Assembly (NCBI GenBank): GCA_001873465.1
Contig: MNZE01000036.1
Location: forward strand, 1 to 35,596
Source: Parcubacteria group bacterium CG2_30_36_38
Lineage (GTDB): Bacteria > Patescibacteriota > Patescibacteriia > UBA2591 > CG2-30-36-38
Reading direction: 5' to 3'
Length of the DNA stretch: 35,596 nucleotides
The position numbers and the translations under genes are program-made. The notes below the pieces were generated by a model. It was given only the letters and a program-made list of their open reading frames with translations, had not been told where the DNA came from and searched no databases. Below are positions 8,746-32,606 of the stretch, one piece after another. Every line of letters starts with the position of its first letter. Within the stretch, counting starts at the first letter, position 1.

Positions 8746-11700
8746 ATGAAAACTTTAATAAAAAACTTTTTACTTTTCCTGATCATTTTTTTAATTATTT
8801 CTGGACTATTTAGTCTCTTTATCTCTCCCTCAGCCCAGGTTGAAGAAATAGCCTTGGGCCAATTTATCTCTTTAGTTAACAATGAACAAGTAAAAAAGAT
8901 AGTTGTTGAAGGAAACAAAATTAATTTATCCCTTATTGATGGACAAAAAAATTTTGTTTTTAAGGAGGAATCTGAAACTCTGGGAGATATCTTCAAAAAC
9001 TACGAGGTCCCTAAAGAAAAAATAGAAAAAATAACAGTTAAAGTCAAACTGCCTTCAAGCGGTTTTTGGCTTAATGTGCTCCCCTTTTTAATCGGCGCCA
9101 TTCTCATGATTGGCTTTTTTATTTTTTTAAATAGACAATTACAAAAAAGCGGGGCTGAGGTAATGAGATTTGGTGAAAGCGGAGTGAGAGAAGTTCAGCC
9201 AGATGAACAAAAAAATAGATTAACCTTTCGCGATGTCGCTGGGGTACGTGAAGCAAAAGAAGAGCTTAAAGAAATCGTTGATTTTCTTAAAAAACCCGAA
9301 AAATTTATTAAACTTGGGGCAAAAATCCCTAAAGGAGTGTTGCTCATTGGCATGCCGGGCACAGGAAAAACACTCCTGGCTAAAGCAGTAGCCGGCGAGG
9401 CAAATGTGCCTTTTTTCCATATCTCCGGCTCAGAATTTGTCGAGCTTTTTGTCGGGATTGGCGCTTCTCGCGTGAGAGACGCTTTTAAAAAAGCGAAAAA
9501 AAGCGTTCCGGCTATTTTATTTATTGACGAGCTTGACGCTATTGGTCGTTTACGCGGCGCTGGACTCGGCGGGTCTCATGATGAAAGGGAGCAAACTTTA
9601 AATCAAATTTTAGTTGAGTTAGACGGATTTGAACCAAATATCGGCTTGGTAGTGATGTCCGCCAGTGTTGCCTCAAACACTCCGGTATTGGTTAAACAAA
9701 ACGGATCGTACAATCTCTCGCCTATTTCTGAAATTATTGATCCTTACTACGAAAACAATGAAGAAGGAATCGAAAAAAAAGTTAAAGGGCTTGAAATACT
9801 TGGATTCGAAAATAATCCTGGGAAAAAATTTGCTAATCACGATTTGCGCTTTCAAAATAGCGCTTTTAAAAAAGTAAATAGTGTTTATCGTCACAAAGTA
9901 AACGAAATCTATGAAATAGAATATTGGGGAGGAAAAATAAAAACTACCGGAAATCATTCTCTTTTTGTCCGTACCCGAGGAAAAATAGAAAAAAAATTAG
10001 TTTCAGAAATGAAACCGGGCGATATTTTGGTTAATCTGCCCTTAAAAACAAACAGAACGAATAAAAAATTTAGACAAATTAGAGCTCATAAATTTAATGA
10101 GAATCTCAACCTTGATCTGCCTGTGTGGCAACCTTTATTTAGAAACTTCCAAAACGTTGAAAACGCTTATCAATATGCTTTAATCCACACTAATAATATT
10201 TCTCAATCTCAACTGGGTAGAATGTTTGGAATTTCTCAAAGAACGATTGGCAAGTGGCAACAGGGAATATGCGAACCGCGAGAACTATCCAGAAATTATT
10301 ATCAACATCAATACTTGCTACCTGAAAAGGTCAGAGTAACTCCGGAGCTAATGCGTCTTTTTGGATATTATGTAGCTGAAGGATATGCTCGGAAAGAAGT
10401 CGATTTTTGTTTGAATATTAAAGAAAAAGAGTTTATTAAAGATATTAAATTCTTAATGGAAAAAATATTTAATCTCGTCCCCAGTCGTAAAAGATATATC
10501 ACCTCTAATGCTATTAATATTATCTATTATTCAAAACCATTGGCTGAATTTTTTAGCTATCATTGCGGCAAGGGAGCGCATCATAAACATATTCCAAGTT
10601 TTTTATTTGAAGCTCCAAAAGAATATTTTATTGAATTTTTGAAAGGGTACGCAGCAGGAGATGGCCATGAAGATCAGAAAAAAAGATTAGAATTAACCTC
10701 GGTGAGTAAACAGCTAATTTTAGAATTAAATTGGTTGTCTGCTATGCACGGATTTAAAAGTTATATTAGTCATTTTCAGGCGAAGGAAGGAAGAAAAATT
10801 AAAGATGGCAAACCTTTATCTGAAACTAAGGCTTACCGTTTAGGATTTGGAAAAAGTCAGAATCCCTTAAAGACTTCTGATGAAATGAGAATAAAAGGCA
10901 ATGTCTGTCGAGTAATTATTAAAAAAATTAAGAAAGTTCCCTACCATGGCTATGTTTATGATTTCTGCGGTTGTGAGAATGAAGCATTTTTTGCTGGTGA
11001 AAATCCAATTTTAGCCCATAACACGAATCGCCCAGATGTTTTGGATCCTGCCTTATTGAGACCCGGTCGATTTGACAGAAAAGTAATTCTTGATATGCCT
11101 GACGTGAAAGATAGAGAAGAAATTTTAAAAATTCACGCCAAGAACAAGCCGTTAGCTACTGATATAAAATTTGAAGAAGTCGCCCAAAGAACCCCCGGTT
11201 TCTCTGGTGCCGACTTAGCCAACCTGATGAATGAAGCCGCTATTTTAGCCGCTAGAAGAAACAAAAATGCAATTAGCCAACCGGAGCTGCTGGAAAGTAT
11301 TGAAAAAGTAATTTTAGGTCCTGAGAGAAAAAGTTATATTTTGGGAGAGCAGGAAAAGAAAATTGTTGCCTTTCATGAAACTGGTCATGCAGTTGTGACT
11401 TATGGTCTACCTTCTTGTGGGCCGGTCAGAAAAATTTCCATCATTGCTAGAGGCAGAGCAGCGGGTTATACCATTAAAACCCCCAAGGAAACTAAATACC
11501 TTTATTCAAAAACAGAGCTCCAAGATAACCTCTCTTCTTTACTGGGCGGTTATGCGGCAGAAAAAATTTTCTTTAATGAAGTCACCACCGGCGCGGCCGA
11601 GGATCTGAAAGAAGTAACTAAAATTGCCAGGAAGGCAGTAACTAAATATGGGATGAATGAATCATTGGGTCCCAGAACGTTTGGTAAGGAAGAAGAGCTA

Positions 11701-11925
11701 ATCTTTTTAGGCAAAGAATTTACTGAGGAAAAGGACTATTCAGAAAAAACAGCGCAGATAATTGATAAAGAAGTAGCCAAAATTATTGATTTCTGCTATA
11801 ATAAAGCCTGTGAAATTATCAAAAAAAATAAGAAAAGGGTTGAAGAAGTGGCTGATTACTTAATAAAAAAAGAAACGATAGAAAAAGAGGATTTTGAAAA
11901 ATTAATGAAACAATCACATGCTTAA
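8746..11925 (+). CDS. ftsH: ATP-dependent zinc metalloprotease FtsH precursor, interrupted in-frame by an intein (1059 aa; about 606 aa after splicing)
   Basis: Two N-terminal TM helices; Walker A GMPGTGKT; Walker B ILFIDELD; [19 protein letters not shown]; zinc site HETGHA. The 453-aa insert lies between VVMSA and TNRPD. Confidence 0.95.
9664..11022 (+). mobile_element. FtsH intein with LAGLIDADG homing-endonuclease domain (453 aa, Ser1 ... His-Asn / Thr+1)
   Basis: Block A is [10 protein letters not shown] and block B is [10 protein letters not shown]. The LAGLIDADG motifs are [11 protein letters not shown] (about nt 10351-10390) and [11 protein letters not shown] (about nt 10633-10670). 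Block F is [15 protein letters not shown] and block G is NPILAHN, followed by T. The boundaries are codon-aligned with the ftsH frame. Confidence 0.9.
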
Positions 11926-21847: not shown

Positions 21848-22351
21848 ATGGTTATTTTAGGCATTGATCCGGGAGTGGCAACTACAGGTTATGGCGTGAT
21901 AAAATTTTCTGAGAGCGGGGAATCTTGTATTTTTGTTTATGGCATTATTTCTTCAAGCGCTCGTGAGCGTTTTTCTAAAAGACTTTTAAAAATTTATCAG
22001 GAATTAAAAAAGATTATAAAGAAATATAAACCTGATCTTTTGGCAATAGAAAATATTTATTTCGCTAAGAATGCCAAAACGGCGATAAATGTTGGCAAAG
22101 CGATTGGTGTGATTTTACTGCTTGGCGAAGAGAAAAAAATTCCTTTTCTAGAACTTACTCCCCTGCAAGTTAAACAGTCTCTCACTGGTTTCGGCCGGGC
22201 AGACAAAGCCCAGGTCCAGAATATGGTGAAACGACTTCTTGGGCTCTCTAAAATTCCTAAGCCTGATGACGCGGCTGATGCCCTAGCCATGGCTTTGACT
22301 GCTCATCAATATAATAAAACCTATGAAAAAAATAAGGCTTGCTCATCTTAG
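21848..22351 (+). CDS. ruvC: Crossover junction endodeoxyribonuclease RuvC
   Basis: 167 aa: ILGIDPGVATTGYGVI, LAIENIYFAKN and PDDAADALAMAL are the catalytic acidic residues and motifs. Confidence 0.9.
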   Translation: MVILGIDPGVATTGYGVIKFSESGESCIFVYGIISSSARERFSKRLLKIYQELKKIIKKYKPDLLAIENIYFAKNAKTAINVGKAIGVILLLGEEKKIPFLELTPLQVKQSLTGFGRADKAQVQNMVKRLLGLSKIPKPDDAADALAMALTAHQYNKTYEKNKACSS

Positions 22352-23786
22352 TGCTGAAGTTTCTCCTTATTCTCAAACAGGCGGGCTGGCAGACGTGACG
22401 AGATCCTTGCCAAGGGCGCTTTGCAGAATGGGGCATCAGGTCATTGTTATTACCCCTTTTTATAAATTTATTAGAAAACAAAACCTACCGCTTGAAGATT
22501 TATCGCAAGCGGTTTCTTTATCTTTTGCAGATTATCATTTTAATTTTTCCTTTAAGAAAGTGATTAGTGAGGATAAATACCCTGTTTTTTTTGTTGTTCA
22601 AGATGAACTATTTTCAGAAAGAGACGTAATTTATAAAGCTCCAGACGATGCTTTGCGCTTCCTTTTTTTTGATTTAGCAGCCTTGGAACTGTTAAAAATT
22701 CTTAAATTTTCACCTGATGTCCTACATTGTCATGATTGGCACACGGGATTAGTGCCATATTTTCTCAAAACTCTTTATAAAGAAGGTCCTGAACTTTCAA
22801 AAATTGCTACTCTTTTCACAATTCATAATTTATCTTTTCAAGGTGCTTTTAATTGGTGGGAAGTCCCTAGAGAAAAAAAAGATGATGGCGGAGATATCTC
22901 GAAAATGAAAGAAGACAATTTTCATTGGATTAATTTTATGAAAAGAGGAATTATGTCTGCCGAGATAATTAATACAGTGAGCGAGCGCTATGCTCAGGAG
23001 ATTCTAACCAAGGAATTTGGCTGTGGCCTTGAAGGCTTCCTGCAAGAAAGAGAAGAAAGATTGTTTGGAATCATTAATGGTATTGATTATAAAGTTTTTA
23101 ACCCGAAATTTGATCCCGATGTTCACGTTAATTATGACGCTGATTCATTCGAGAGAAAAACTGAGAATAAAATTGCCCTGCAGCAAGAGTTTAACTTGAC
23201 AGTTGATGAGAGAACTCCTATGATAGGTTTGGCTCACCGTTTAACTGAACAGAAAGGGATTGAATTATTAATTAAAATTCTTGAGGAGCTTTTAAAATTA
23301 AACGTTCAAATAGTAATAGTCGGAACAGGAGAAGAGTCCTATGTAGAAGCGCTTAAAAAATTTAAAAAGAAACACACTAAAAAAATTGTTTTTATTACGC
23401 CATTTGAGGAATCTTGGGCAAGAAAAATTTATGCTGCTTCAGATATTTATCTTCTCCCTTCGCGATTTGAGCCCTGTGGCTTATCGCAACTTATTAGTTT
23501 AAGATATGGCTCTGTGCCGGTAGTGCGCGCTGTTGGTGGTTTATCTGACACAGTGACCAATTACAATCCGGGGACAGGGAGGGGGAACGGATTTGTTTTT
23601 CGTAATTATAGTGAGATAGAGCTTCTAGCGGCGATTGTGAGGGCTTTAGAAAATTATAAAAGAAAAAGCGCTTGGAAAAAATTAGCTTGTCGGGCAATGA
23701 AAGAGACATATTCTTGGAATTTGCCGGCGAAAAAATACGTGGCTTTATATAAAAAAGCACTCAAGAAAAAAATGAAAAATCTGTAA
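22323..23786 (+). CDS. glgA: Glycogen/starch synthase (GT5), paralog 1
   Basis: 487 aa: HLSAEVSPYSQTGGLADV (the KTGGL-type motif), HCHDWHTGL, TIHNLSFQG and PSRFEPCGLSQLISLRYGSVPVVRAVGGLSDTV. Confidence 0.9.
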   Translation: MKKIRLAHLSAEVSPYSQTGGLADVTRSLPRALCRMGHQVIVITPFYKFIRKQNLPLEDLSQAVSLSFADYHFNFSFKKVISEDKYPVFFVVQDELFSERDVIYKAPDDALRFLFFDLAALELLKILKFSPDVLHCHDWHTGLVPYFLKTLYKEGPELSKIATLFTIHNLSFQGAFNWWEVPREKKDDGGDISKMKEDNFHWINFMKRGIMSAEIINTVSERYAQEILTKEFGCGLEGFLQEREERLFGIINGIDYKVFNPKFDPDVHVNYDADSFERKTENKIALQQEFNLTVDERTPMIGLAHRLTEQKGIELLIKILEELLKLNVQIVIVGTGEESYVEALKKFKKKHTKKIVFITPFEESWARKIYAASDIYLLPSRFEPCGLSQLISLRYGSVPVVRAVGGLSDTVTNYNPGTGRGNGFVFRNYSEIELLAAIVRALENYKRKSAWKKLACRAMKETYSWNLPAKKYVALYKKALKKKMKNL

Positions 23787-25294: not shown

Positions 25295-26380
25295 ATGATG
25301 AAAAGAAAAAGGATTCCCTTTAAAAAAATCAAAAAATTGCTAGATCCGGATTTTATAAATAAATTTTTTAATAAGCGCTACAGGCGATATTATAAAGAAG
25401 CGAAAGGATGTCGTTTTTTAGGAATTAAAAAAATAAAGCGATTTGCAGGAGGAAAATCGATTTCCGCTTCTTATTTTTTAAAATTAAAAATTGGCAAGGA
25501 GGAAAAAATAAAAATAATCGACGGCCGGGCTCGTCAACGTCTCTTTACTGACGAGAATAATCCTCAAAGGCATTATCTAGTCTTGAAGCATCTCTATACT
25601 AAAAATTTTAGCCGTGAAGTGCCGAGGCCCCTTGATTATCAAAAGCCATACAATCTTCTTCTTTACGAAGAAGTTGAGGGAGAGGCGTTGCAGCAGAAAT
25701 TGATGAGAGGTGAAATAAGTTTTGTTTTAAGCTTTATTCCTAAAATTGTTTTTTGGTTGAGGAAACTTCATCGGGAAAATTTATTAAAAGGCAGACTGGC
25801 GGCTCTGGAAGGAAGCAACAGAATTCTCCTGCGAGACAAAAAAGTAGAGGCGAAAGAAATGCGTCATGCTCTCTTTTTAACCAAGAAATTCTATCCTCAA
25901 GGAACACTTTCGGTCAAAAAAGTCGTAGAGAAATTAAATAAATTGCGGCGAAAGAAAAAAAATTGGTTTTTGGAAAAAGAAAATTATGCTCTTTGTCATT
26001 ATGATGTTCATTTCGGCAATTTTTTAACTAGCGATCGCCAATTGAAAGTTATTGATTTTAGTGATGCTTGTTTTTATGATCCGTTGGCAGACCTCGCTTG
26101 TTTTTTGGTTCAAACTGAATCAATGCTTGAATATTATCAGAGAAAAAAAGCAAAAATAATTTTGCCAAGAATTAAGAATCAAATTATTAATCTATATTTT
26201 AAACGCCAACCAGAGAGAAGAGAGATTTTTCGACTTAAATATTTTGAGATCCGGCGTCTCGTTTCGATGTTTACTAGTTTAATTTTTGTTGAGGGCGAAG
26301 AAAAAAATAAAAAATTGATGTTAGATGATTTTAAGAAGAAAATATCATTAAAATTTAAGCAAATAGAAGGAACTTTATGA
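25295..26380 (+). CDS. Aminoglycoside-phosphotransferase-fold (APH/choline-kinase-like) kinase
   Basis: It has the catalytic loop LCHYDVHFGNFL (HxDxxxxN) and the metal-binding VIDFSDACFYDPLADLA. I prefer the ATG at 25295, 8 nt after the GH57 stop, over the track start at 25163, which would overlap GH57 by 125 nt. Confidence 0.75.
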   Translation: MMKRKRIPFKKIKKLLDPDFINKFFNKRYRRYYKEAKGCRFLGIKKIKRFAGGKSISASYFLKLKIGKEEKIKIIDGRARQRLFTDENNPQRHYLVLKHLYTKNFSREVPRPLDYQKPYNLLLYEEVEGEALQQKLMRGEISFVLSFIPKIVFWLRKLHRENLLKGRLAALEGSNRILLRDKKVEAKEMRHALFLTKKFYPQGTLSVKKVVEKLNKLRRKKKNWFLEKENYALCHYDVHFGNFLTSDRQLKVIDFSDACFYDPLADLACFLVQTESMLEYYQRKKAKIILPRIKNQIINLYFKRQPERREIFRLKYFEIRRLVSMFTSLIFVEGEEKNKKLMLDDFKKKISLKFKQIEGTL

Positions 26381-27870
26381 AAATTTTATTTATTGCCTCA
26401 GAACTTAACCCCTTGGCTAAAGTTGGTGGCTTAGGAGACGTGGCTGGCGCCCTGCCTTTAGCTTTGAAAAAATTGGGGGCGGATATTAGGATCGCCTTGC
26501 CTAAATATGGGGTGATTGATGAAAAAAAATATCCTTGTGAATTGGTTGCCAAAGATATTAAAATAAAGATTGGTCGAGAAGAAGAAAAAATCAATCTTTA
26601 CAAAACTGAATTAGGCGAAGAAAAAGTAATTGTTTATTTAATTGATAATAAAAAATATTTAGGCGAGGACGGAGTTTATTTTGAGAAAACCGCTTTTTGC
26701 GGCTCTTTTGCCGAAATAAAGCGGTTTTTATTTTTTACCCATGCTGTTTTTTCTTTAATAGAAAAACTTGATTGGCAGCCGGAAATAATTCATTGTAATG
26801 ATTGGCATACGTCATTTTTGCCGGTCTTCCTAAAAATGAAATCAAAAATAAAAGATAAAAAATTAAAAACATTGTTAACTATTCATAATTTAGCCAATCA
26901 AGGGAGATGGAACGCCCAGGAAATTTTTGATTTTTTAGGACTTAAAGGCGATGAAACAGAAAGCCTTGGAAAAAGACAATTAGGTTCATACGGCGAAGAT
27001 CTTAATTTAATGCAGCAAGGGATTTTAAACGCTGATTTTATTAATACGGTGAGTCCAACTTACGCCAGAGAAATTCTGACCAAACCTTATTTTGGCCGTG
27101 GGTTTAAAGAAACTTTATTAAAAAGAAGAAATAATTTTGTTGGAATTCTAAACGGCTTAGATACAGAAACTTTTAATCCGGAGACAGATCCTTATATAAA
27201 AAGAAATTATTCTTTTAGAAATCCAGAAATAAAAAAAGAGAATAAAATCTATTTGGAAAAAAAGTTGGGTTTAAAAGTCGATCCTGATGTCCCTCTTTTT
27301 GCCTTGGTCTCAAGGCTGACCTTCCAGAAGGGGATTGAGTTAGTGGTCAATGGTCTAAAAAATCTTAGAGATTTTGATTTTCGAGCAGTTTTTTTAGGCG
27401 TTGGTGAAGAGCGATATGAGGAATCTATTAAAAATTTAGCCAAAAAATTTCCGGGCAAAATTGCAGCTGAGATTAAATATGATTCTCAATTAGCTCAGGA
27501 AATTTATGCTGGAGCTGATTTTTTTCTGATGCCATCAAAATTTGAACCGTGCGGCTTGACTCAATTGATTGCTTTGCGTTATGGCGCTATCCCGATTGTC
27601 AGAAGAGTTGGCGGACTGGCTGACACAATTAAAAACATAAGGGTTAAAAAGAGATTTTTAAATTTTTTAAAAAGAATAGAAGGCAATGGTTTCGTCTTGC
27701 GGGAATATGATGCAGACAAGTTTGTTAAGGTTTTAAAAAGAGCAACTTCTTTTTATCAAAATAAAGATCTATGGCGTAGATTGCAAATAAAAGCAATGGA
27801 AGAAGACCATTCCTGGCAACAGTCAGCCGGGGAATATTTAGAGCTTTATGAAAAAATATTGCAAACTTAG
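26377..27870 (+). CDS. glgA: Glycogen/starch synthase (GT5), paralog 2
   Basis: 497 aa: MKILFIASELNPLAKVGGLGDV, HCNDWHTSF, TIHNLANQG and PSKFEPCGLTQLIALRYGAIPIVRRVGGLADTI. There is a 4-nt start/stop overlap with the kinase gene. Confidence 0.9.
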   Translation: MKILFIASELNPLAKVGGLGDVAGALPLALKKLGADIRIALPKYGVIDEKKYPCELVAKDIKIKIGREEEKINLYKTELGEEKVIVYLIDNKKYLGEDGVYFEKTAFCGSFAEIKRFLFFTHAVFSLIEKLDWQPEIIHCNDWHTSFLPVFLKMKSKIKDKKLKTLLTIHNLANQGRWNAQEIFDFLGLKGDETESLGKRQLGSYGEDLNLMQQGILNADFINTVSPTYAREILTKPYFGRGFKETLLKRRNNFVGILNGLDTETFNPETDPYIKRNYSFRNPEIKKENKIYLEKKLGLKVDPDVPLFALVSRLTFQKGIELVVNGLKNLRDFDFRAVFLGVGEERYEESIKNLAKKFPGKIAAEIKYDSQLAQEIYAGADFFLMPSKFEPCGLTQLIALRYGAIPIVRRVGGLADTIKNIRVKKRFLNFLKRIEGNGFVLREYDADKFVKVLKRATSFYQNKDLWRRLQIKAMEEDHSWQQSAGEYLELYEKILQT

Positions 27871-28613: not shown

Positions 28614-28921
28614 CGGGAAAGCCATTAGTTTGGATTTTGATTATTGCTATTATGGCGACGATTTTCATTTTTTGGCTTCGTAATTTAAATCTTCTTTTTT
28701 TTCAGTCATCATCAGTAAAAGAAGAGCCGCTTTTTTCTTTGTTTAAAGAGGGGTACGACGAGACAAGAGATATTTTTCGTGAGTTGGGCAAGCGGCTCGA
28801 AGGAACGCAGATTGCTTCTGTCTCCTCTACTTCTTCTGTTTCCTCTTCAGAGGAGGCCTTGACCGAAGAGCAAATAAAAATTTTAAAAGAAAAAATTTTA
28901 GAGAAATATGAAAAAAAATAA
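28610..28921 (+). CDS. Hypothetical membrane-anchored protein
   Basis: 103 aa with one N-terminal TM helix, a Ser-rich linker and a charged C-terminus. It overlaps both neighbours (4 nt and 14 nt). Confidence 0.5.
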   Translation: MTGKPLVWILIIAIMATIFIFWLRNLNLLFFQSSSVKEEPLFSLFKEGYDETRDIFRELGKRLEGTQIASVSSTSSVSSSEEALTEEQIKILKEKILEKYEKK

Positions 28922-31900
28922 ACCCCGACGCCTAAAGGGGTCGGGGCTCCGACCGAGAGCGTCGGAGGAAATTATAAAAAAAGAAGCTATAAATGCTTCA
29001 ATTAAAGAAGAAATGCAATCTTCTTATTTAGATTACGCCATGTCAGTGATAGTCTCGCGTGCCCTGCCCGATGCCCGGGATGGTCTGAAACCAGTTCAGA
29101 GAAGAATTTTATACACTATGCATAGAATGGGATTAAGCTCAGAAGCCAAGTTTAGAAAAGCGGCAGCCGTGGTTGGCGATACCCTTGGTCGTTTCCACCC
29201 ACATGGCGACATTTCCGTTTATAATTCCATGGTCAGGATGGCTCAAAATTTTTCTTTGCGCTATCCGTTAGTTGAAGCGCAGGGCAATGTGGGTTGTTTC
29301 ACGGCTGATACTAGGGTGAAACTTACAGACGGCAGAGATTTATCGTTCGCAGAGCTAGTGAAAGAGTACAAAGAGGGAAAGAGAAACTTTACCTTTACGG
29401 TTGACGAGAATGGGACGGTGAAGATAGCAGAGATAAAAAATCCCAGGATGACAAAAAAGAACGCAGAAATAATGAAAGTTGTTTTAGATAATGGGGAAGA
29501 GATAAAATGTACTCTTAGCCATAAATTTATGCTGAAATCTGGAGCAAAAGCAGGATTTGTTTATAAAGAAGCTAGAAATTTAAAACCAGGAGATTCTCTT
29601 ATGCCAGCATACTTTAGATTTTCTACCGGAGAAGACGATCCTAATATGATTGGTTATAATATGATTCTCCAGCCGAAATTAAATTTTTGGAATTTTGTTC
29701 ATATCCTTTCAGACAGTTGGAATATTGAGAATAAGATATATGAAAGATCAAGGGGAAGAATTAGACACCATCTTGATTTTAATAAGTTAAACAATAACCC
29801 AGAAAACATTCAAAGGATGGGCTGGAAAGAGCACTGGCAATCTCATTATAATTTGACTTCTCTAAGACATATCAATGACGAAAATTATAAAGCTAAACTC
29901 GCAGAAGGTAGGAGAAAATTTTGGGCGGAAGAAAAAAACAGAAAAATTTTTTCTCAAAGAATAAGAGGAAGAAATATTTTAAATTGGAAAAAGAAAGAAT
30001 ATCGTGAACGAATGAGAATTTTTTTAAGCGAAGTTAACAAAAAATATTTTAGAGAGCATCCTGAGGCTATTCAGAGAATCAGCAGAACAGCATCAAAAAC
30101 AATGAGAAGATTGTGGCAAAATCCAAAATATAAAAGATTATTTCATGAAAAGATTGTAGAGAGCAATAGAAACAGGAAGGGGAAGACAAATTCAAGTGGC
30201 AAAAAGAAATTCTTAAAAATATGTCATTATCTTAATGATAGAAATATAATTTTAAATAAAGATAACTTTGAGAAAGCAAGAAAGAGCGTATTCGGAATAA
30301 AAAGTTTTACTAGTTGGAACTTGGGCATTGCGAAACATTACAACAGAGATATTAATTTATTGTCATCTAAGATTAATAGAAATCACAAAGTAGTAAGAGT
30401 AGAATTTTTAAAAGAGTTTGCAAATGTTTATGACTTGACAATAGAAAAAACGCATAACTTTGCTTTATCTGCCGGTGTTTTCGTCCACAACTCGATTGAT
30501 GGTGATCCACCAAGCGCCATGCGTTATCTTGAGGCAAAATTATCTAAAGCAGGCGAAGAAATGTTGATTGATCTTGAAAAAGAAACGGTTTCTTTTGTGC
30601 CTAATTATGATGGGACACAACAAGAACCGACGGTTCTGCCGGCCGGCATACCCAATCTTCTTTTAAATGGCGCGATGGGCATCGCGGTTGGTATGGCTAC
30701 CAGCATCCCGCCTCATAATTTAAATGAGACTTGTGACGCTCTCGTTTACTTACTTCTTCACCCTGAAGCAGAAATAGACGAGATTTTTCAATTTGTTAAA
30801 GGGCCAGACTTCCCAACTGGCGGAATCATTTTTAATCTTAAACAAATTAAAGAAGCTTATGCCGCTGGACGAGGGGCGGTAACAGTAAGGGCTAAGACAG
30901 AGATAGAAGAAGGAGAAAAAGGCGAGACTATCATTATTAAAGAGATCCCCTATCAGATTAATAAAGCAGAGCTGCTTCTTAAAATAGCTGATTTGGTAAA
31001 AGAAAAACGCCTAGAAGGCGTGCGAGACATCCGGGACGAATCAACGGAGGAAGGGGTGAGAGTGGTGATTGAATTAAAAAAAGACGTTTCAGCCGAGAAG
31101 ATTTTAAATCAGCTTTTTGAATTAACCAACCTGCAAACAAACTTTAATCTTAATTTTGTAGCGCTTGAATCAGGTATCCAGCCAAGACTTTTCGGCTTTA
31201 AAGAATTATTAGTTAGTTATCTTTCTTGGCGGAAAGAGGTTGTTAGAAAAAGAACAGAGTTTGAGCTGAAGAAGACAGAAGAGCGGCTGCATATTTTAGA
31301 AGGGTTTCTTATTGCTTTAGTCAATATTGACAAGGTCGTTTCCTTAATTAGGCACTCTAAAGACAGAAAAGAAGCAAAGGACGGCTTGATGAAAAAGTTT
31401 AAGCTTTCAGGTCGCCAGACCGAAGCCATTTTAGAAATGAGGCTCCATCAGTTAGCTGGGCTGGAGCGGTTGGAGATAGAGAATGAAGCAAAAGAAAAGA
31501 AAAAACTAGAGAAAGAATTAAAAATTTTATTAGCTGATCCTAAAAAAATTTTTGCCAAAATTAAAGAGGAACTGAGGATTTTAAAAGAAAAATATCCAGA
31601 AAAAAGAAGAACAGAAATCAAAGAAAAAGGGGTTGATATATTGAAAGAAGAAGACTTAATTATTGACAAGCCAGTGCTTATTGCCATCACAGTTGATGAT
31701 TATATAAAAAGATTGCCGCCCGATGTTTTTAAAGTTCAGATGCGCGGAGGTAAGGGCATTTCAGGTTTTGAAATTAAAGAAGAAGATAAAATTAAAAAAA
31801 TTCTTTTTACCAACTTGCATTCAGACATCTTGTTTTTTACCAATAAAGGAAAAATATTTTCTTTAAAAGCCTATGAGATTCCTGAAACAAGCAGGGAAAG

Positions 31901-32606
31901 CAAAGGAAAGGCGTTGATCAATTTTTTATCTTTGAGTCCCGGCGAAATGGTTTTAGAAATTCTCAGAGCAAAGTCAATCGCTGATTTTTCTTATTTGATT
32001 ATAGCGACAAAATTTGGTATAATAAAAAAAATTGCGACAAAACTTTTAACCAATATCAGGAAATCGGGCTTAAACATTATCAGACTTAAAAAAGACGATT
32101 CTTTAGTAGAGGCAATTTTCTGCGAGAAAACTGACGAAATATTTTTAATCTCGTCCAGCGGTCAATCTATTCGTTTTAAAGAAGAAAATGTGCGGCCAAT
32201 GGGCAGAACAGCGACGGGCGTACGAGGCGTTACACTCAAAAAAGATGATTATTTAGAAGGGCTGGCGAGGACTCGCAAAGACAAAATAAAAGAAAATTAT
32301 CTTTTAATTATTACGGAGAACGGTTTTGGGAAAATGAGTCCTCTTAAAGAATATCGTTTGCAGACACGAGGCGGTAGTGGGGTAAAGACGGCAAAAATTA
32401 CTGCTAAGACCGGAAAAATAATTGCTTCTTTAATTCTTGAAGAGAAAGAAAGAGAAGAGAAAGACTTGATACTTATTTCAAGGCAAGGCGTTCTTTTGCG
32501 TCTCCCCTTGGCGCAGGTGCCAAAGATGGGGCGGCAAACGCAGGGCGTCAAATTGATGAGATTTAAAAAAGAAGGAGATAGAGTTGCTTCAATGGTTATA
32601 GTGTAA
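28908..32606 (+). CDS. gyrA: DNA gyrase subunit A precursor, interrupted in-frame by an intein (1232 aa; about 833 aa after splicing)
   Basis: [37 protein letters not shown] and the catalytic-Tyr motif [10 protein letters not shown] are present. The C-terminus has beta-pinwheel repeats ([28 protein letters not shown]). The insert lies between GNVG and SIDGD. Confidence 0.95.
29295..30491 (+). mobile_element. GyrA intein with HNH-type endonuclease domain (399 aa, Cys1 ... His-Asn / Ser+1)
   Basis: Block A is [13 protein letters not shown] and block B is [11 protein letters not shown]. The HNH motif is [30 protein letters not shown] (about nt 29755-29848). Block F is [17 protein letters not shown] and block G is VFVHN, followed by S. 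The boundaries are codon-aligned with the gyrA frame. Confidence 0.9.

What the first reader, a model, noticed from the sequence alone, without database searches (positions are those of the whole stretch)
29295..30491. HNH-endonuclease intein in GyrA at a site different from the classical mycobacterial GyrA intein
GyrA reads ...LVEAQGNVG | CFTADTRV ... GVFVHN | [17 protein letters not shown]. The 399-aa insert has Cys1, a TxxH block B (TLSH), block F ([14 protein letters not shown]) and HN followed by Ser+1. The well-known Mycobacterium GyrA inteins sit immediately after the catalytic Tyr (AMRY | C...HN | TEA). This one lies 11 residues upstream of that Tyr, between the equivalents of E. coli Gly110 and Ser111, just past the quinolone-resistance region. 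Its endonuclease is not LAGLIDADG. It is an intact-looking HNH motif ([27 protein letters not shown]) followed by three tandem basic repeats of the form W-x4-(Y/N)-(R/K) ([32 protein letters not shown]). These repeats look like DNA-binding helices. HNH inteins are the minority class, and this looks like an independent invasion of gyrA.
Basis: partly seen in the sequence, partly recalled or inferred. Interest (0 to 1): 0.75.

Follow-up and report, generated by a model that had tools for sequence, protein, structure and literature searches.

The report
HNH-type intein in Patescibacteria GyrA
The gyrase A gene of this small-genome (Patescibacteria-like) bacterium carries a real, intact-looking self-splicing intein with an HNH homing endonuclease, 12 codons upstream of the classical mycobacterial site, but the same insertion occurs in at least 80 other public genomes, so it is a well-formed example of a known kind of mobile element and not a new one.

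Summary
The ORF at 28908-32606 is GyrA (1232 aa). It contains a 399-aa in-frame insert (29295-30491) with every class-1 intein hallmark: Cys1, TLSH block B, blocks F/G, His-Asn and Ser+1. The insert lies between the equivalents of E. coli Gly110 and Ser111, 11 residues before catalytic Tyr122.

The insert is unrelated to the classical GyrA inteins at the Tyr122|Thr123 site, which carry LAGLIDADG endonucleases. Identity over the Hint (splicing) domain is only 16-22%. It belongs instead to a large family of HNH_3-type inteins that also occupy GyrB (EGDSAGG|S), RadA and many other proteins.

The "three basic repeats" are real. They are part of 4-5 copies of a roughly 21-residue basic helical repeat whose copy number varies (about 11 by eye in 522-aa relatives). 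No Pfam model covers it.

The allele is not rare. All 80 best GTDB loci (CPR bacteria, DPANN archaea, Omnitrophota and others) have it at exactly this site. Syntenic close relatives have empty sites or a mini-intein with the endonuclease deleted. Intein similarity does not track extein similarity. This is the pattern expected of a homing cycle with horizontal spread.

This is a new member of a known kind.

The parts
28908..32606 (+). gyrA precursor ORF, 1232 aa including the intein; 833 aa after splicing.
   Evidence: NCBIfam gyrA equivalogs NF004043 (1018.6 bits, E reported as 0) and TIGR01063 (6.7e-301) match in two stretches either side of the insert. Pfam finds DNA_topoisoIV and DNA_gyraseA_C.
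28908..29294 (+). N-extein, 129 aa, ending ...LVEAQGNVG (equivalent to E. coli Gly110).
29295..30491 (+). Intein, 399 aa, class 1 (Cys1 ... His398-Asn399).
   Evidence: Pfam PF14890 2.2e-22; TIGR01445 7e-12; TIGR01443 8e-6. AF2 model pLDDT 86.
29295..29696 (+). N-terminal Hint lobe, residues 1-134. It contains Cys1 (29295-29297) and block B T73-L-S-H76 (29511-29522). A 5-aa insertion at residues 85-89 is unique to this copy.
   Evidence: Alignment A1 invariants C1, T73, H76. Foldseek matches RadA, DnaE and DnaB intein structures at E about 5e-6. Deviations from consensus are listed.
29655..29744 (+). Beta-hairpin plus helix that precedes the HNH motif, residues 121-150, with invariant Y121, H136 and L138. 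It resembles the NUMOD4 N-terminal element of I-HmuI-like enzymes.
   Evidence: AF2 strands 122-126 and 131-134 and helix 135-145. NUMOD4-annotated models appear among the Foldseek BFVD hits.
29766..29846 (+). HNH motif [27 protein letters not shown], residues 158-184. Invariant residues are H158, H159, K164, N167, P169, N171, H180 and H184.
   Evidence: Predicted beta-beta-alpha: strands 156-159 and 172-175, helix 177-194. PHROG 7545 at 1.4e-4 over residues 158-197. HNH_3 in 7 of 25 homologues.
29871..30188 (+). Basic helical repeat array, residues 193-298: 4-5 units of about 21 residues, anchored by W210, W231, F252 and W274. The 196-300 stretch has 33 K/R against 11 D/E. Presumed DNA-binding module.
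   Evidence: Profile autocorrelation peaks at lag 21 and lag 43. Helices at 196-211, 213-232, 234-254, 257-274 and 277-295. Charge counts. No Pfam family matches.
30195..30380 (+). C-terminal helical subdomain of the endonuclease region, residues 301-362. Function unassigned; possibly a DNA-binding helical bundle.
   Evidence: AF2 helices 301-315, 322-333, 341-349 and 353-360. No fold or HMM match.
30381..30491 (+). C-terminal Hint lobe, residues 363-399. It contains block F ([15 protein letters not shown]) and block G (GVFVHN).
   Evidence: TIGR01443. A1 invariants N363, H364, V378, N388, F389, F396, V397, H398 and N399.
30492..32606 (+). C-extein. It begins with the Ser+1 codon TCG (30492-30494). 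The catalytic Tyr codon TAT is at 30525-30527.

Best explanation
The insert is a full-length class-1 intein in GyrA, between the equivalents of E. coli Gly110 and Ser111. After translation the Hint domain should splice in four steps: an N-S acyl shift at Cys1, transesterification to Ser+1, cyclisation of Asn399, and an O-N shift. This excises the 399-aa intein and rejoins GNVG-SIDGD, so that the loop carrying catalytic Tyr122 becomes functional. Nested in the Hint fold is an I-HmuI/HNH_3-type His-Me-finger endonuclease. It is followed by a strongly basic array of about 21-residue helical repeats and a small helical bundle, which presumably read an extended DNA target. At the DNA level the element spreads by homing: the endonuclease nicks or cuts an intein-less gyrA allele at or near the GGN|TCN junction, and repair copies the intein in. 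The element belongs to the HNH intein family that includes the GyrB inteins at EGDSAGG|S. From memory, the Synechocystis GyrB intein is the prototype of that family. It is unrelated to the LAGLIDADG inteins at the classical Tyr122|Thr123 GyrA site. The anatomy, the homology, the insertion site, the presence/absence polymorphism and the intein/extein incongruence are shown here. Splicing, nuclease activity and the DNA-binding role of the repeats are inferred.
For: - **Intein HMMs and catalytic residues.**
- **Insertion site.** Mapped against E. coli K-12 GyrA.
- **HNH assignment.** HNH residues are invariant in 25 homologues. HNH_3 is found in 7 of 25 members, best 1.3e-7. PHROG HNH endonuclease scores 1.4e-4 on the window copy. 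AF2 predicts beta-beta-alpha over the motif. The Foldseek BFVD list is dominated by HNH, NUMOD4 and homing-endonuclease models, with a phage Hint-domain protein on top at 4.6e-8.
- **Relatives in GyrB.** Full-length homology to GyrB inteins at 33-37% identity, E about 1e-52 to 1e-59.
- **A relative that splices.** The window intein shows 28.8% identity over its full length to the cyanophage CL131 dCTP-deaminase intein. That intein carries HintN plus HNH_3 and was shown to self-excise in E. coli (PMC6293099).
- **Not the classical allele.** Classical-site inteins are a separate clade. NCBIfam GyrA_w_intein scores 786 bits against a cut-off of 1850.
- **Homing-cycle signature.** Syntenic relatives L082 and L083 have the same gene order (MBL-fold gene, small ORF, gyrA, pcm) and 70-74% nucleotide identity in the flanks, but have empty sites. 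P0124 has a 168-aa mini-intein that is a deletion derivative of the 522-aa P0122 type. Mini-inteins of 147-208 aa occur at the same site elsewhere.
- **Horizontal movement.** Loci labelled DPANN share 63-67% intein identity but only 40-45% C-extein identity. Several CPR loci share 54-59% extein identity but only 37-52% intein identity.
- **Little decay.** The window copy departs from the >=80% consensus at only four places: V42, S301, N377 and two short insertions.
Against: - No experiment shows splicing or cleavage for this copy.
- Pfam and NCBIfam HNH models do not reach E<=1 on the window copy itself.
- Sequence and Foldseek searches of the PDB with the endonuclease domain found nothing significant.
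- The BFVD HNH matches have E only about 1e-2, although their probability is about 1.
- pTM is low (0.47-0.63), so the arrangement of the repeat helices is not reliable.
- The nearest empty alleles differ at 6-9 of the 15 nt downstream of the site and use AGY instead of TCG for Ser+1. Whether they would be cleavable is unknown.
Confidence: 0.9

Rival explanations
1. It is a splicing-competent intein whose HNH endonuclease is no longer active. On this reading the element is a vertically inherited passenger late in the homing cycle, and the conservation of the endonuclease region reflects structural constraint on splicing or a recent origin.
For: Mini-inteins at the same site show that endonuclease loss is common. 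Pfam HNH models miss this copy. The copy has two private insertions, at residues 85-89 and 295-296. No intein-less allele with an identical target sequence was found; the nearest empties are diverged around the site.
Against: All invariant HNH residues are retained, and there are only three substitutions at positions with >=80% consensus. The endonuclease domain is nearly as conserved as the Hint domain among G|S-site inteins, 38-64% against 46-66% identity to the window. Intein and extein similarities are incongruent, which needs recent mobility somewhere in this clade.
Confidence: 0.25
2. It is a member, or a shifted variant, of the classical mycobacterial GyrA intein allele (GyrA-a), and the 12-codon offset is an alignment artefact or a slide of the same element.
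For: The host gene is the same and the location is within 36 bp of the classical site. NCBIfam has an 'intein-containing GyrA' exception model that partly matches.
Against: The junction is unambiguous: G|C...HN|S, with the [12 protein letters not shown] segment intact downstream. NF038098 scores 786 bits, below its cut-off of 1850, and aligns only the exteins and the last approximately 24 intein residues. Genomes L020, L031, L043 and L056 carry both inteins at both sites. The classical-site inteins there are LAGLIDADG inteins of 434-440 aa, related to Mxe GyrA at 1e-13 to 1e-21 and not to the window intein. Hint-domain identity is 16-22%.
Confidence: 0.01
3. It is a non-splicing in-frame insertion that stays in mature GyrA, either a domesticated nuclease or DNA-binding domain or a bacterial intein-like (BIL) domain.
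For: No splicing data exist for this copy.
Against: The insert retains Cys1, block B His, the block F residues, His-Asn and a +1 Ser, all invariant or nearly so across the family. The insert splits the loop 11 residues before the catalytic Tyr of an essential enzyme. Orthologues lack it precisely. A full-length relative was shown to self-excise.
Confidence: 0.03

Closest known systems
HNH-type GyrB inteins at EGDSAGG|SAKQGRD. From memory, the prototype is the Synechocystis sp. PCC6803 GyrB intein, and it is the intein that Dalgaard et al. 1997 NAR 25:4626 identified as encoding an HNH-family endonuclease. The paper's title is cited, but the paper itself was not readable here.
   Same: The architecture is colinear along the full length: Hint-N, beta-hairpin plus helix, the [14 protein letters not shown](I/L)...H...H motif, W-containing basic helical repeats, a helical bundle, and a Hint-C ending THNFALxxGVFVHN|S. 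Identity is 33-37% overall and 51-61% over the Hint domain.
   Different: The host gene is gyrA, not gyrB, and so is the insertion site. The GyrB versions carry about 2 more repeat units (434-435 aa against 399).
Metagenomic GyrA inteins at the same Gly110|Ser111 site in CPR bacteria, DPANN archaea, Omnitrophota and others (for example JAGVWU010000066, MHOT01000010, LCOU01000033).
   Same: Identical insertion point, the same family, up to 67% identity, the same length class of 390-394 aa.
   Different: None in kind. The window copy has a private 5-aa insertion (residues 85-89). Its host extein has F109V and T123L.
Classical GyrA inteins at Tyr122|Thr123: Mycobacterium xenopi, M. leprae and others, called 'GyrA-a' in Kelley et al. 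2016 (PMC5050341), PDB 1AM2, NCBIfam NF038098.
   Same: The same host protein, within 12 codons of the same position. Both are class-1 inteins with Cys1 and His-Asn.
   Different: The insertion site differs. The +1 residue is Thr, not Ser. The endonuclease is LAGLIDADG, or is lost as in Mxe. Hint-domain identity is only 16-22% and there is no significant BLAST hit. 1AM2 ranks only 48th in Foldseek.
Cyanophage vB_AphaS-CL131 dCTP-deaminase intein (HintN plus HNH_3), shown experimentally to self-excise (PMC6293099).
   Same: It aligns over 100% of the window intein (28.8% identity, 2e-21) and has the same Hint plus HNH_3 architecture.
   Different: It is in a phage, in a different host protein, and is shorter (351 aa).
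I-HmuI / HNH_3 (PF13392) free-standing and intron-encoded phage homing endonucleases with NUMOD4 N-terminal elements.
   Same: A beta-hairpin plus a beta-beta-alpha-metal core. Structural matches to many such models at probability about 1. HNH_3 HMM hits in family members.
   Different: Here the endonuclease is embedded in a Hint domain. Its DNA-binding tail is a W-repeat helical array that Pfam does not recognise. I-HmuI itself is not recovered by sequence or Foldseek search of the PDB.

Membership tests
Intein (class 1, Hint fold) | Hint / intein splicing domain recognised by curated HMMs above their cut-offs. | tested here: met
   PF14890 scores 80 bits (cut-off 35.8). TIGR01445 scores 46.1 bits (cut-off 24.5). 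TIGR01443 scores 25.9 bits (cut-off 15.6).
Intein (class 1, Hint fold) | Catalytic residues: Cys/Ser1, block B TxxH, block F Asp/His, penultimate His, C-terminal Asn, and a +1 Cys/Ser/Thr. | tested here: met
   C1, T73..H76, D380, H387, H398, N399 and Ser+1 are present. All are invariant or >=90% conserved in A1.
Intein (class 1, Hint fold) | Precise in-frame insertion in a conserved host protein, with orthologues continuous across the junction. | tested here: met
   E. coli GyrA aligns across G110|S111. The syntenic loci L082 and L083 are empty at the site.
Intein (class 1, Hint fold) | Protein splicing actually occurs. | not testable with these tools
   The only support is by analogy: the homologous CL131 intein self-excises in E. 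coli (PMC6293099).
HNH / His-Me finger homing endonuclease (Pfam HNH_3 type) | Match to a curated HNH HMM. | tested here: inconclusive
   The window copy has no Pfam or NCBIfam HNH hit at E<=1. PHROG 7545 'HNH endonuclease' scores 1.4e-4 on it. HNH_3 hits 7 of 25 aligned homologues, best 1.3e-7, and is precomputed on P0118 and P0119.
HNH / His-Me finger homing endonuclease (Pfam HNH_3 type) | Conserved H-N-H catalytic and metal-binding residues on a beta-beta-alpha fold. | tested here: met
   H158, H159, N171, H180 and H184 are invariant. AF2 places strands at 156-159 and 172-175 and a helix at 177-194, with pLDDT above 90. This is predicted, not solved.
HNH / His-Me finger homing endonuclease (Pfam HNH_3 type) | Structural similarity to known HNH endonucleases. 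| tested here: inconclusive
   In BFVD, dozens of HNH, NUMOD4 and homing-endonuclease models match at probability about 1 but E about 1e-2 over roughly 75 columns. In the PDB, no hit below E=7.
HNH / His-Me finger homing endonuclease (Pfam HNH_3 type) | Site-specific DNA nicking or cleavage. | not testable with these tools
Classical GyrA intein allele (Tyr122|Thr123; NF038098 GyrA_w_intein) | Insertion immediately after the catalytic Tyr, with Thr+1. | tested here: not met
   The insertion is at G110|S111 with Ser+1. The AMRY-L sequence is uninterrupted.
Classical GyrA intein allele (Tyr122|Thr123; NF038098 GyrA_w_intein) | Score above the NCBIfam cut-off, or homology of the intein to Mxe/Mle GyrA inteins. 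| tested here: not met
   NF038098 scores 786 bits against a cut-off of 1850. There is no significant BLAST hit to classical-site inteins. Hint-domain identity is 16-22%.
GyrB-type HNH intein family (Ssp GyrB-like) | Full-length colinear homology of the Hint, HNH and repeat regions. | tested here: met
   Identity is 33-37% over 95-100% of the query, E about 1e-45 to 1e-59, to GyrB inteins at EGDSAGG|S.
GyrB-type HNH intein family (Ssp GyrB-like) | Host gene gyrB with insertion at EGDSAGG|SAKQGRD. | tested here: not met
   The host is gyrA, at GQGN(F/V)G|S(I/V)DGD. It is therefore the same intein family but a different allele.

The most novel reading that the evidence does not exclude
The Gly110|Ser111 HNH intein may be a second major gyrA intein allele that has never been formally catalogued. 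I found no paper that lists it. It appears to be the dominant gyrA intein of ultra-small CPR bacteria and DPANN archaea, and to move between the two domains: the window's bacterial copy is closer to copies labelled DPANN than its extein is. Its roughly 21-residue W-repeat array, which varies by eye from about 4 to about 11 units and has no Pfam model, could be an undescribed modular DNA-recognition repeat that sets the length of the homing site.
Probability: 0.3. Interest if true: 0.45.

Novelty: new member of a known kind. Interest (0 to 1): 0.3.

Why it matters
This is a clean example of an HNH-type intein sitting 11 residues from the catalytic tyrosine of an essential drug-target enzyme.

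- **Homing cycle.** The neighbourhood of relatives shows the whole cycle in one place: empty site, full-length intein, expanded-repeat intein, mini-intein.
- **Spread across lineages.** The data point to spread across very distant lineages of ultra-small symbionts.
- **Genome annotation.** GyrA and GyrB are phylogenetic markers in CPR and DPANN genomes. Near-identical inteins in the two genes seem to cause chimeric assemblies.
- **Protein engineering.** The family is a large untapped pool of Cys1/Ser+1 inteins and compact mini-inteins, related to the GyrB intein already used as a split intein.

It does not change what is known about inteins.

Tried and rejected
- **PDB sequence search with the endonuclease domain.** The only hit was a chance match at E 0.33.
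- **Foldseek of the endonuclease-domain model against the PDB.** Nothing below E=7. The long helices probably swamp the small beta-beta-alpha core.
- **Foldseek of the whole-intein model.** It returned only Hint domains and said nothing about the endonuclease.
- **NUMOD3 idea for the W-repeats.** I recalled that the motif might resemble NUMOD3. Pfam gave no NUMOD3 hit or any other repeat-family hit, even on the 522-aa relative at E<=10. I do not claim it.
- **Literature search for a catalogue of gyrA intein sites.** Novikova et al. 2016 list 50 bacterial GyrA inteins in four phyla, but the supplementary tables are not held. Kelley et al. 2016 use the label 'GyrA-a' for the M. xenopi allele. 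Dalgaard et al. 1997 could not be opened. Whether the G|S site already has a published letter designation stays open.
- **GC content as a sign of foreign origin.** The intein is at 0.32 and the exteins at 0.39. The K/N-rich composition explains this, and the ftsH intein shows the same offset, so it is weak evidence.
- **Checking that 'DPANN' loci are truly archaeal from their flanks.** The flanks hold only gyrB, an HD-domain phosphohydrolase and a CsaA-like protein, which are not diagnostic. The domain assignment rests on the record titles.
Full report
**1. Observation**

The ORF at 28908..32606 (+) encodes a 1232-aa protein. NCBIfam identifies it as DNA gyrase subunit A: NF004043 scores 1018.6 bits and TIGR01063 scores 6.7e-301. 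Each match is split into two stretches that flank a central insert. Pfam Intein_splicing scores 2.2e-22. The TIGRFAM N- and C-terminal splicing-region models are both above their cut-offs. I removed the insert and aligned the 833-aa product with E. coli K-12 GyrA, fetched as L081. The insertion falls between Gly110 and Ser111, and catalytic Tyr122 is 11 residues after Ser+1. A protein differing at 5 of 1232 residues was assembled independently (P0121, a cluster of 51 members, on a JGI contig of 24.8 kb), so the ORF is not an assembly artefact. No ORF of 60 aa or more lies on the opposite strand of the intein.

**2. The organism**

The window also encodes DnaN, ribosomal protein S1, FtsH and PilT. 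Its overall GC is 0.355. The nearest GyrA exteins carry Patescibacteria names (Buchanan-, Falkow-, Uhr- and Kerfeld-bacteria) at 54-58% identity. The host is therefore a CPR/Patescibacteria bacterium.

**3. The splicing domain**

An alignment of 25 full-length homologues (A1) keeps the following residues invariant or at least 90% conserved: C1, T73, H76 (block B TLSH), D380, H387 (block F), H398 and N399. An AlphaFold2 model has mean pLDDT 86. It shows the two Hint lobes at residues 1-134 and 363-399. Foldseek matches them to the RadA, DnaE, CDC21, RecA and DnaB intein structures at E about 5e-6 to 1e-4. The window copy departs from the strong family consensus only at V42, S301 and N377 and at two private insertions, residues 85-89 and 295-296. 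Asn at the position of N377 is also seen in the Npu DnaE block F aligned.

**4. The endonuclease**

- **No LAGLIDADG motif is present.**
- **Motif conservation.** The motif [27 protein letters not shown] (residues 158-184) is conserved almost letter for letter in GyrA- and GyrB-borne relatives. H158, H159, K164, N167, P169, N171, H180 and H184 are invariant.
- **HMM evidence is mixed.** Pfam and NCBIfam HNH models do not reach E<=1 on the window copy. PHROG 7545 'HNH endonuclease' does, at 1.4e-4 over residues 158-197. Pfam HNH_3 (PF13392) hits 7 of the 25 aligned homologues, best 1.3e-7. It is precomputed on P0118 and P0119.
- **Predicted fold.** The AF2 models put a beta-beta-alpha unit exactly on the motif (strands 156-159 and 172-175, helix 177-194). 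A beta-hairpin and a helix precede it at residues 122-145.
- **Structure searches.** The domain model has pLDDT 91. It found nothing in the PDB. In BFVD its best hit was a Hint-domain protein of Bacillus phage SP-15 at 4.6e-8. Most of the remaining hits listed carry HNH endonuclease, NUMOD4 or homing endonuclease annotations, at probability about 1 and E about 1e-2 over roughly 75 columns.

I conclude that this is an HNH_3/I-HmuI-like His-Me-finger domain. The assignment rests on family-level homology and a predicted fold, not on a direct curated-HMM hit to this copy.

**5. The repeats**

A profile autocorrelation over residues 190-300 of the 16 GyrA-type sequences gives isolated peaks at lag 21 (+0.19) and lag 43 (+0.21) against a background of about -0.65. 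The array therefore has 4-5 units of about 21 residues (193-213, 214-234, 235-255, 256-277, 278-298), with F252 standing in for the missing Trp. Each unit is predicted as one long helix. Residues 196-300 hold 33 K/R against 11 D/E. Copy number varies. GyrB inteins have about two more units. The 522-aa GyrA inteins, such as P0122 and L071-L080, have about 11 by my own reading of the sequence. Pfam recognises no family in them, even at E<=10. A DNA-binding role is an inference from charge, helicity and position downstream of the HNH core. By analogy it resembles the modular DNA-binding tails of I-HmuI/I-TevI-type enzymes, which is established knowledge that I did not test here.

**6. Relation to the classical GyrA intein**

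Four GTDB genomes that carry the G|S intein also carry a second intein at AMRY|C...HN|TE (L020, L031, L043, L056). Those inteins are 434-440 aa long and have LAGLIDADG-like sequence motifs, by my reading. The window intein has no significant BLAST match to any of them. Over the Hint domain alone, the window intein is 57-78% identical to G|S-site GyrA inteins, 51-61% to GyrB inteins, 68-73% to a set of RadA mini-inteins, and 16-22% to classical-site inteins. In a neighbour-joining tree without bootstrap the classical-site inteins form a separate deep clade. NCBIfam's GyrA_w_intein exception model scores 786 bits against a cut-off of 1850 and aligns only the exteins and the last approximately 24 intein residues. 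PDB 1AM2 ranks 48th in Foldseek. The claim of an independent invasion of gyrA is supported.

**7. How common it is**

The intein search returned 161 proteins at E<=1e-3. Every GyrA-borne hit with a visible junction has GQGN(F/W/M/Y)G|C...HN|S(I/V/L/M)DGD. The best 80 are all gyrA at this same site. By record title they come from DPANN archaea (Nano-, Woese-, Pace-, Micr-archaeota, Diapherotrites), CPR bacteria (Staskawicz-, Kaiser-, Yanofsky-, Magasanik- and Berkel-bacteria), Omnitrophota, Elusimicrobiota and others. An exhaustive profile search with the endonuclease domain found 6244 50%-identity cluster representatives at E<=1e-3 and 91 at E<=1e-30. Judging from junction contexts I read off with an ad hoc pattern, they include GyrA, GyrB and many large proteins that carry multiple inteins. 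Full-length relatives also sit in phage genes. One of these, the CL131 dCTP-deaminase intein (HintN plus HNH_3), was shown to self-excise in E. coli (PMC6293099). This is a populous family and a populous allele. I could not find a paper that names the allele (see section 10).

**8. Evidence of mobility**

Among the nearest extein relatives:

| Protein | Extein identity to window | State of the G|S site |
|---|---|---|
| P0122 | 75% | 522-aa HNH intein of another subtype (48% identity to the window intein over the first ~300 residues) |
| P0124 | 72% | 168-aa mini-intein, a deletion derivative of the P0122 type |
| P0123, P0125, P0126, P0127 | 63-73% | empty |

The contigs of P0123 and P0125 (L082, L083) are syntenic with the window. 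They share the gene order MBL-fold gene, small ORF, gyrA, pcm, and 70-74% nucleotide identity, but have an uninterrupted site. Intein and extein similarities are discordant. Loci labelled DPANN share 63-67% intein identity but only 40-45% C-extein identity. Several CPR loci share 54-59% extein identity but only 37-52% intein identity. Together these give the expected signature of a homing cycle with horizontal transfer. They suggest, by record titles only, exchange between CPR bacteria and DPANN archaea.

**9. Mechanism**

Shown here: the anatomy, the catalytic residues, the homology, the insertion site, the presence/absence polymorphism and the intein/extein incongruence.

Inferred: class-1 splicing (Cys1 thioester, transfer to Ser+1, Asn399 cyclisation) that restores the GNVG-SIDGD loop next to Tyr122; HNH-catalysed nicking or cleavage of intein-less gyrA near the GGN|TCN junction; the repeat array and the C-terminal helical bundle providing extended DNA recognition; and repair-mediated copying of the intein.

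Whether this particular endonuclease is still active cannot be decided here. I put it at about 0.6-0.7, given full retention of the invariant residues.

**10. Comparison with what is known, and novelty**

The element works like the HNH-type GyrB inteins and belongs to the same intein family, but it sits in a different host gene and site. It is not a member of the classical GyrA-a allele. That the Synechocystis GyrB intein is the HNH prototype is my recollection. Only the title of Dalgaard et al. 1997 could be verified. That Ssp GyrB is a natural GyrB intein is confirmed in PMC3443213. Novikova et al. 2016 counted 50 bacterial GyrA inteins in Actinobacteria, Aquificae, Chloroflexi and Proteobacteria, but the site tables are not available here. 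Because the same allele is already present in many public genome records, I rate it a new member of a known kind, with interest about 0.3.

The most novel reading still open has two parts. First, the G|S allele may be formally uncatalogued and may move between CPR bacteria and DPANN archaea. Second, the W-repeat array may be an undescribed modular DNA-recognition repeat.

Noticed in passing
window 9664-11022 (+), inside ftsH 8746-11925: A second intein lies in the same window. FtsH is 1059 aa and carries a 453-aa insert with the junctions VVMSA|SVASNT...ILAHN|TNRPD. The insert begins with Ser1. By eye it has a TGNH block B, two LAGLIDADG-like motifs ([14 protein letters not shown] and [14 protein letters not shown]) and a helix-turn-helix-like stretch. 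NCBIfam intein-containing models hit residues 307-727. Its GC is 0.33 against 0.38 for the ftsH exteins.
   Followed up: partly
L020, L031, L043, L056 (and proteins P0014, P0025): Some GyrA genes carry both inteins: the HNH intein at G110|S111 and a 434-440-aa LAGLIDADG intein at Y122|T123. This leaves a 12-residue extein island, S(I/V/L)DGDxxAAxRY, which holds the catalytic Tyr between two inteins. It bears on the published idea that neighbouring inteins interfere with each other's homing (PMC10643990).
   Followed up: partly
proteins P0077 and P0104 (contigs of 2.3 and 1.6 kb): These are chimeric predicted proteins with a GyrA N-extein (GQGNFG|C...) and a GyrB C-extein (...HN|SSKMARD / SARQARN) joined through a roughly 150-166-aa intein. 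The most likely cause is metagenome mis-assembly across near-identical inteins in gyrA and gyrB of one population. A real recombinant is not excluded.
   Followed up: no
proteins P0079, P0081, P0095, P0099, P0101 (RadA) and P0113 (GyrA): RadA mini-inteins (GHA|C...HN|STYR) are 68-73% identical to the window GyrA intein over the Hint domain and nest inside the GyrA clade. One GyrA mini-intein (P0113) groups with GyrB inteins. This suggests repeated jumps between host genes. The tree has no bootstrap support.
   Followed up: partly
window 29286-29291 and 30528-30530: The host extein has two unusual substitutions next to the two intein sites. GNVG replaces the near-universal GN(F/W)G (E. coli F109). 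RY-L-EA replaces RY-T-E (E. coli T123), which removes the +1 nucleophile that a classical-site intein would need. Whether this reflects co-adaptation or immunity is unknown.
   Followed up: no
L082 and L083 against window 29250-29294 / 30492-30536: The empty-site alleles in the syntenic relatives encode Ser+1 with AGT/AGC instead of TCG. They differ at 6-9 of the 15 nt downstream of the insertion point. The target site may have diverged enough to resist homing.
   Followed up: partly
L004 62-1081: In a genome labelled Woesearchaeota, the gyrB gene just upstream of the intein-bearing gyrA also ends an intein (TIGR01443 C-terminal splicing region, followed by the GyrB C-terminus). Both gyrase subunits of that genome are therefore invaded.
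   Followed up: no
window 22323-23786 and 26377-27870: There appear to be two glycogen-synthase-like genes about 2.6 kb apart. The first is confirmed as GlgA (TIGR02095, 5.7e-156). The second was judged only by eye from its translation. Between them lie a weak branching-enzyme-like ORF and a kinase-like ORF.
   Followed up: no
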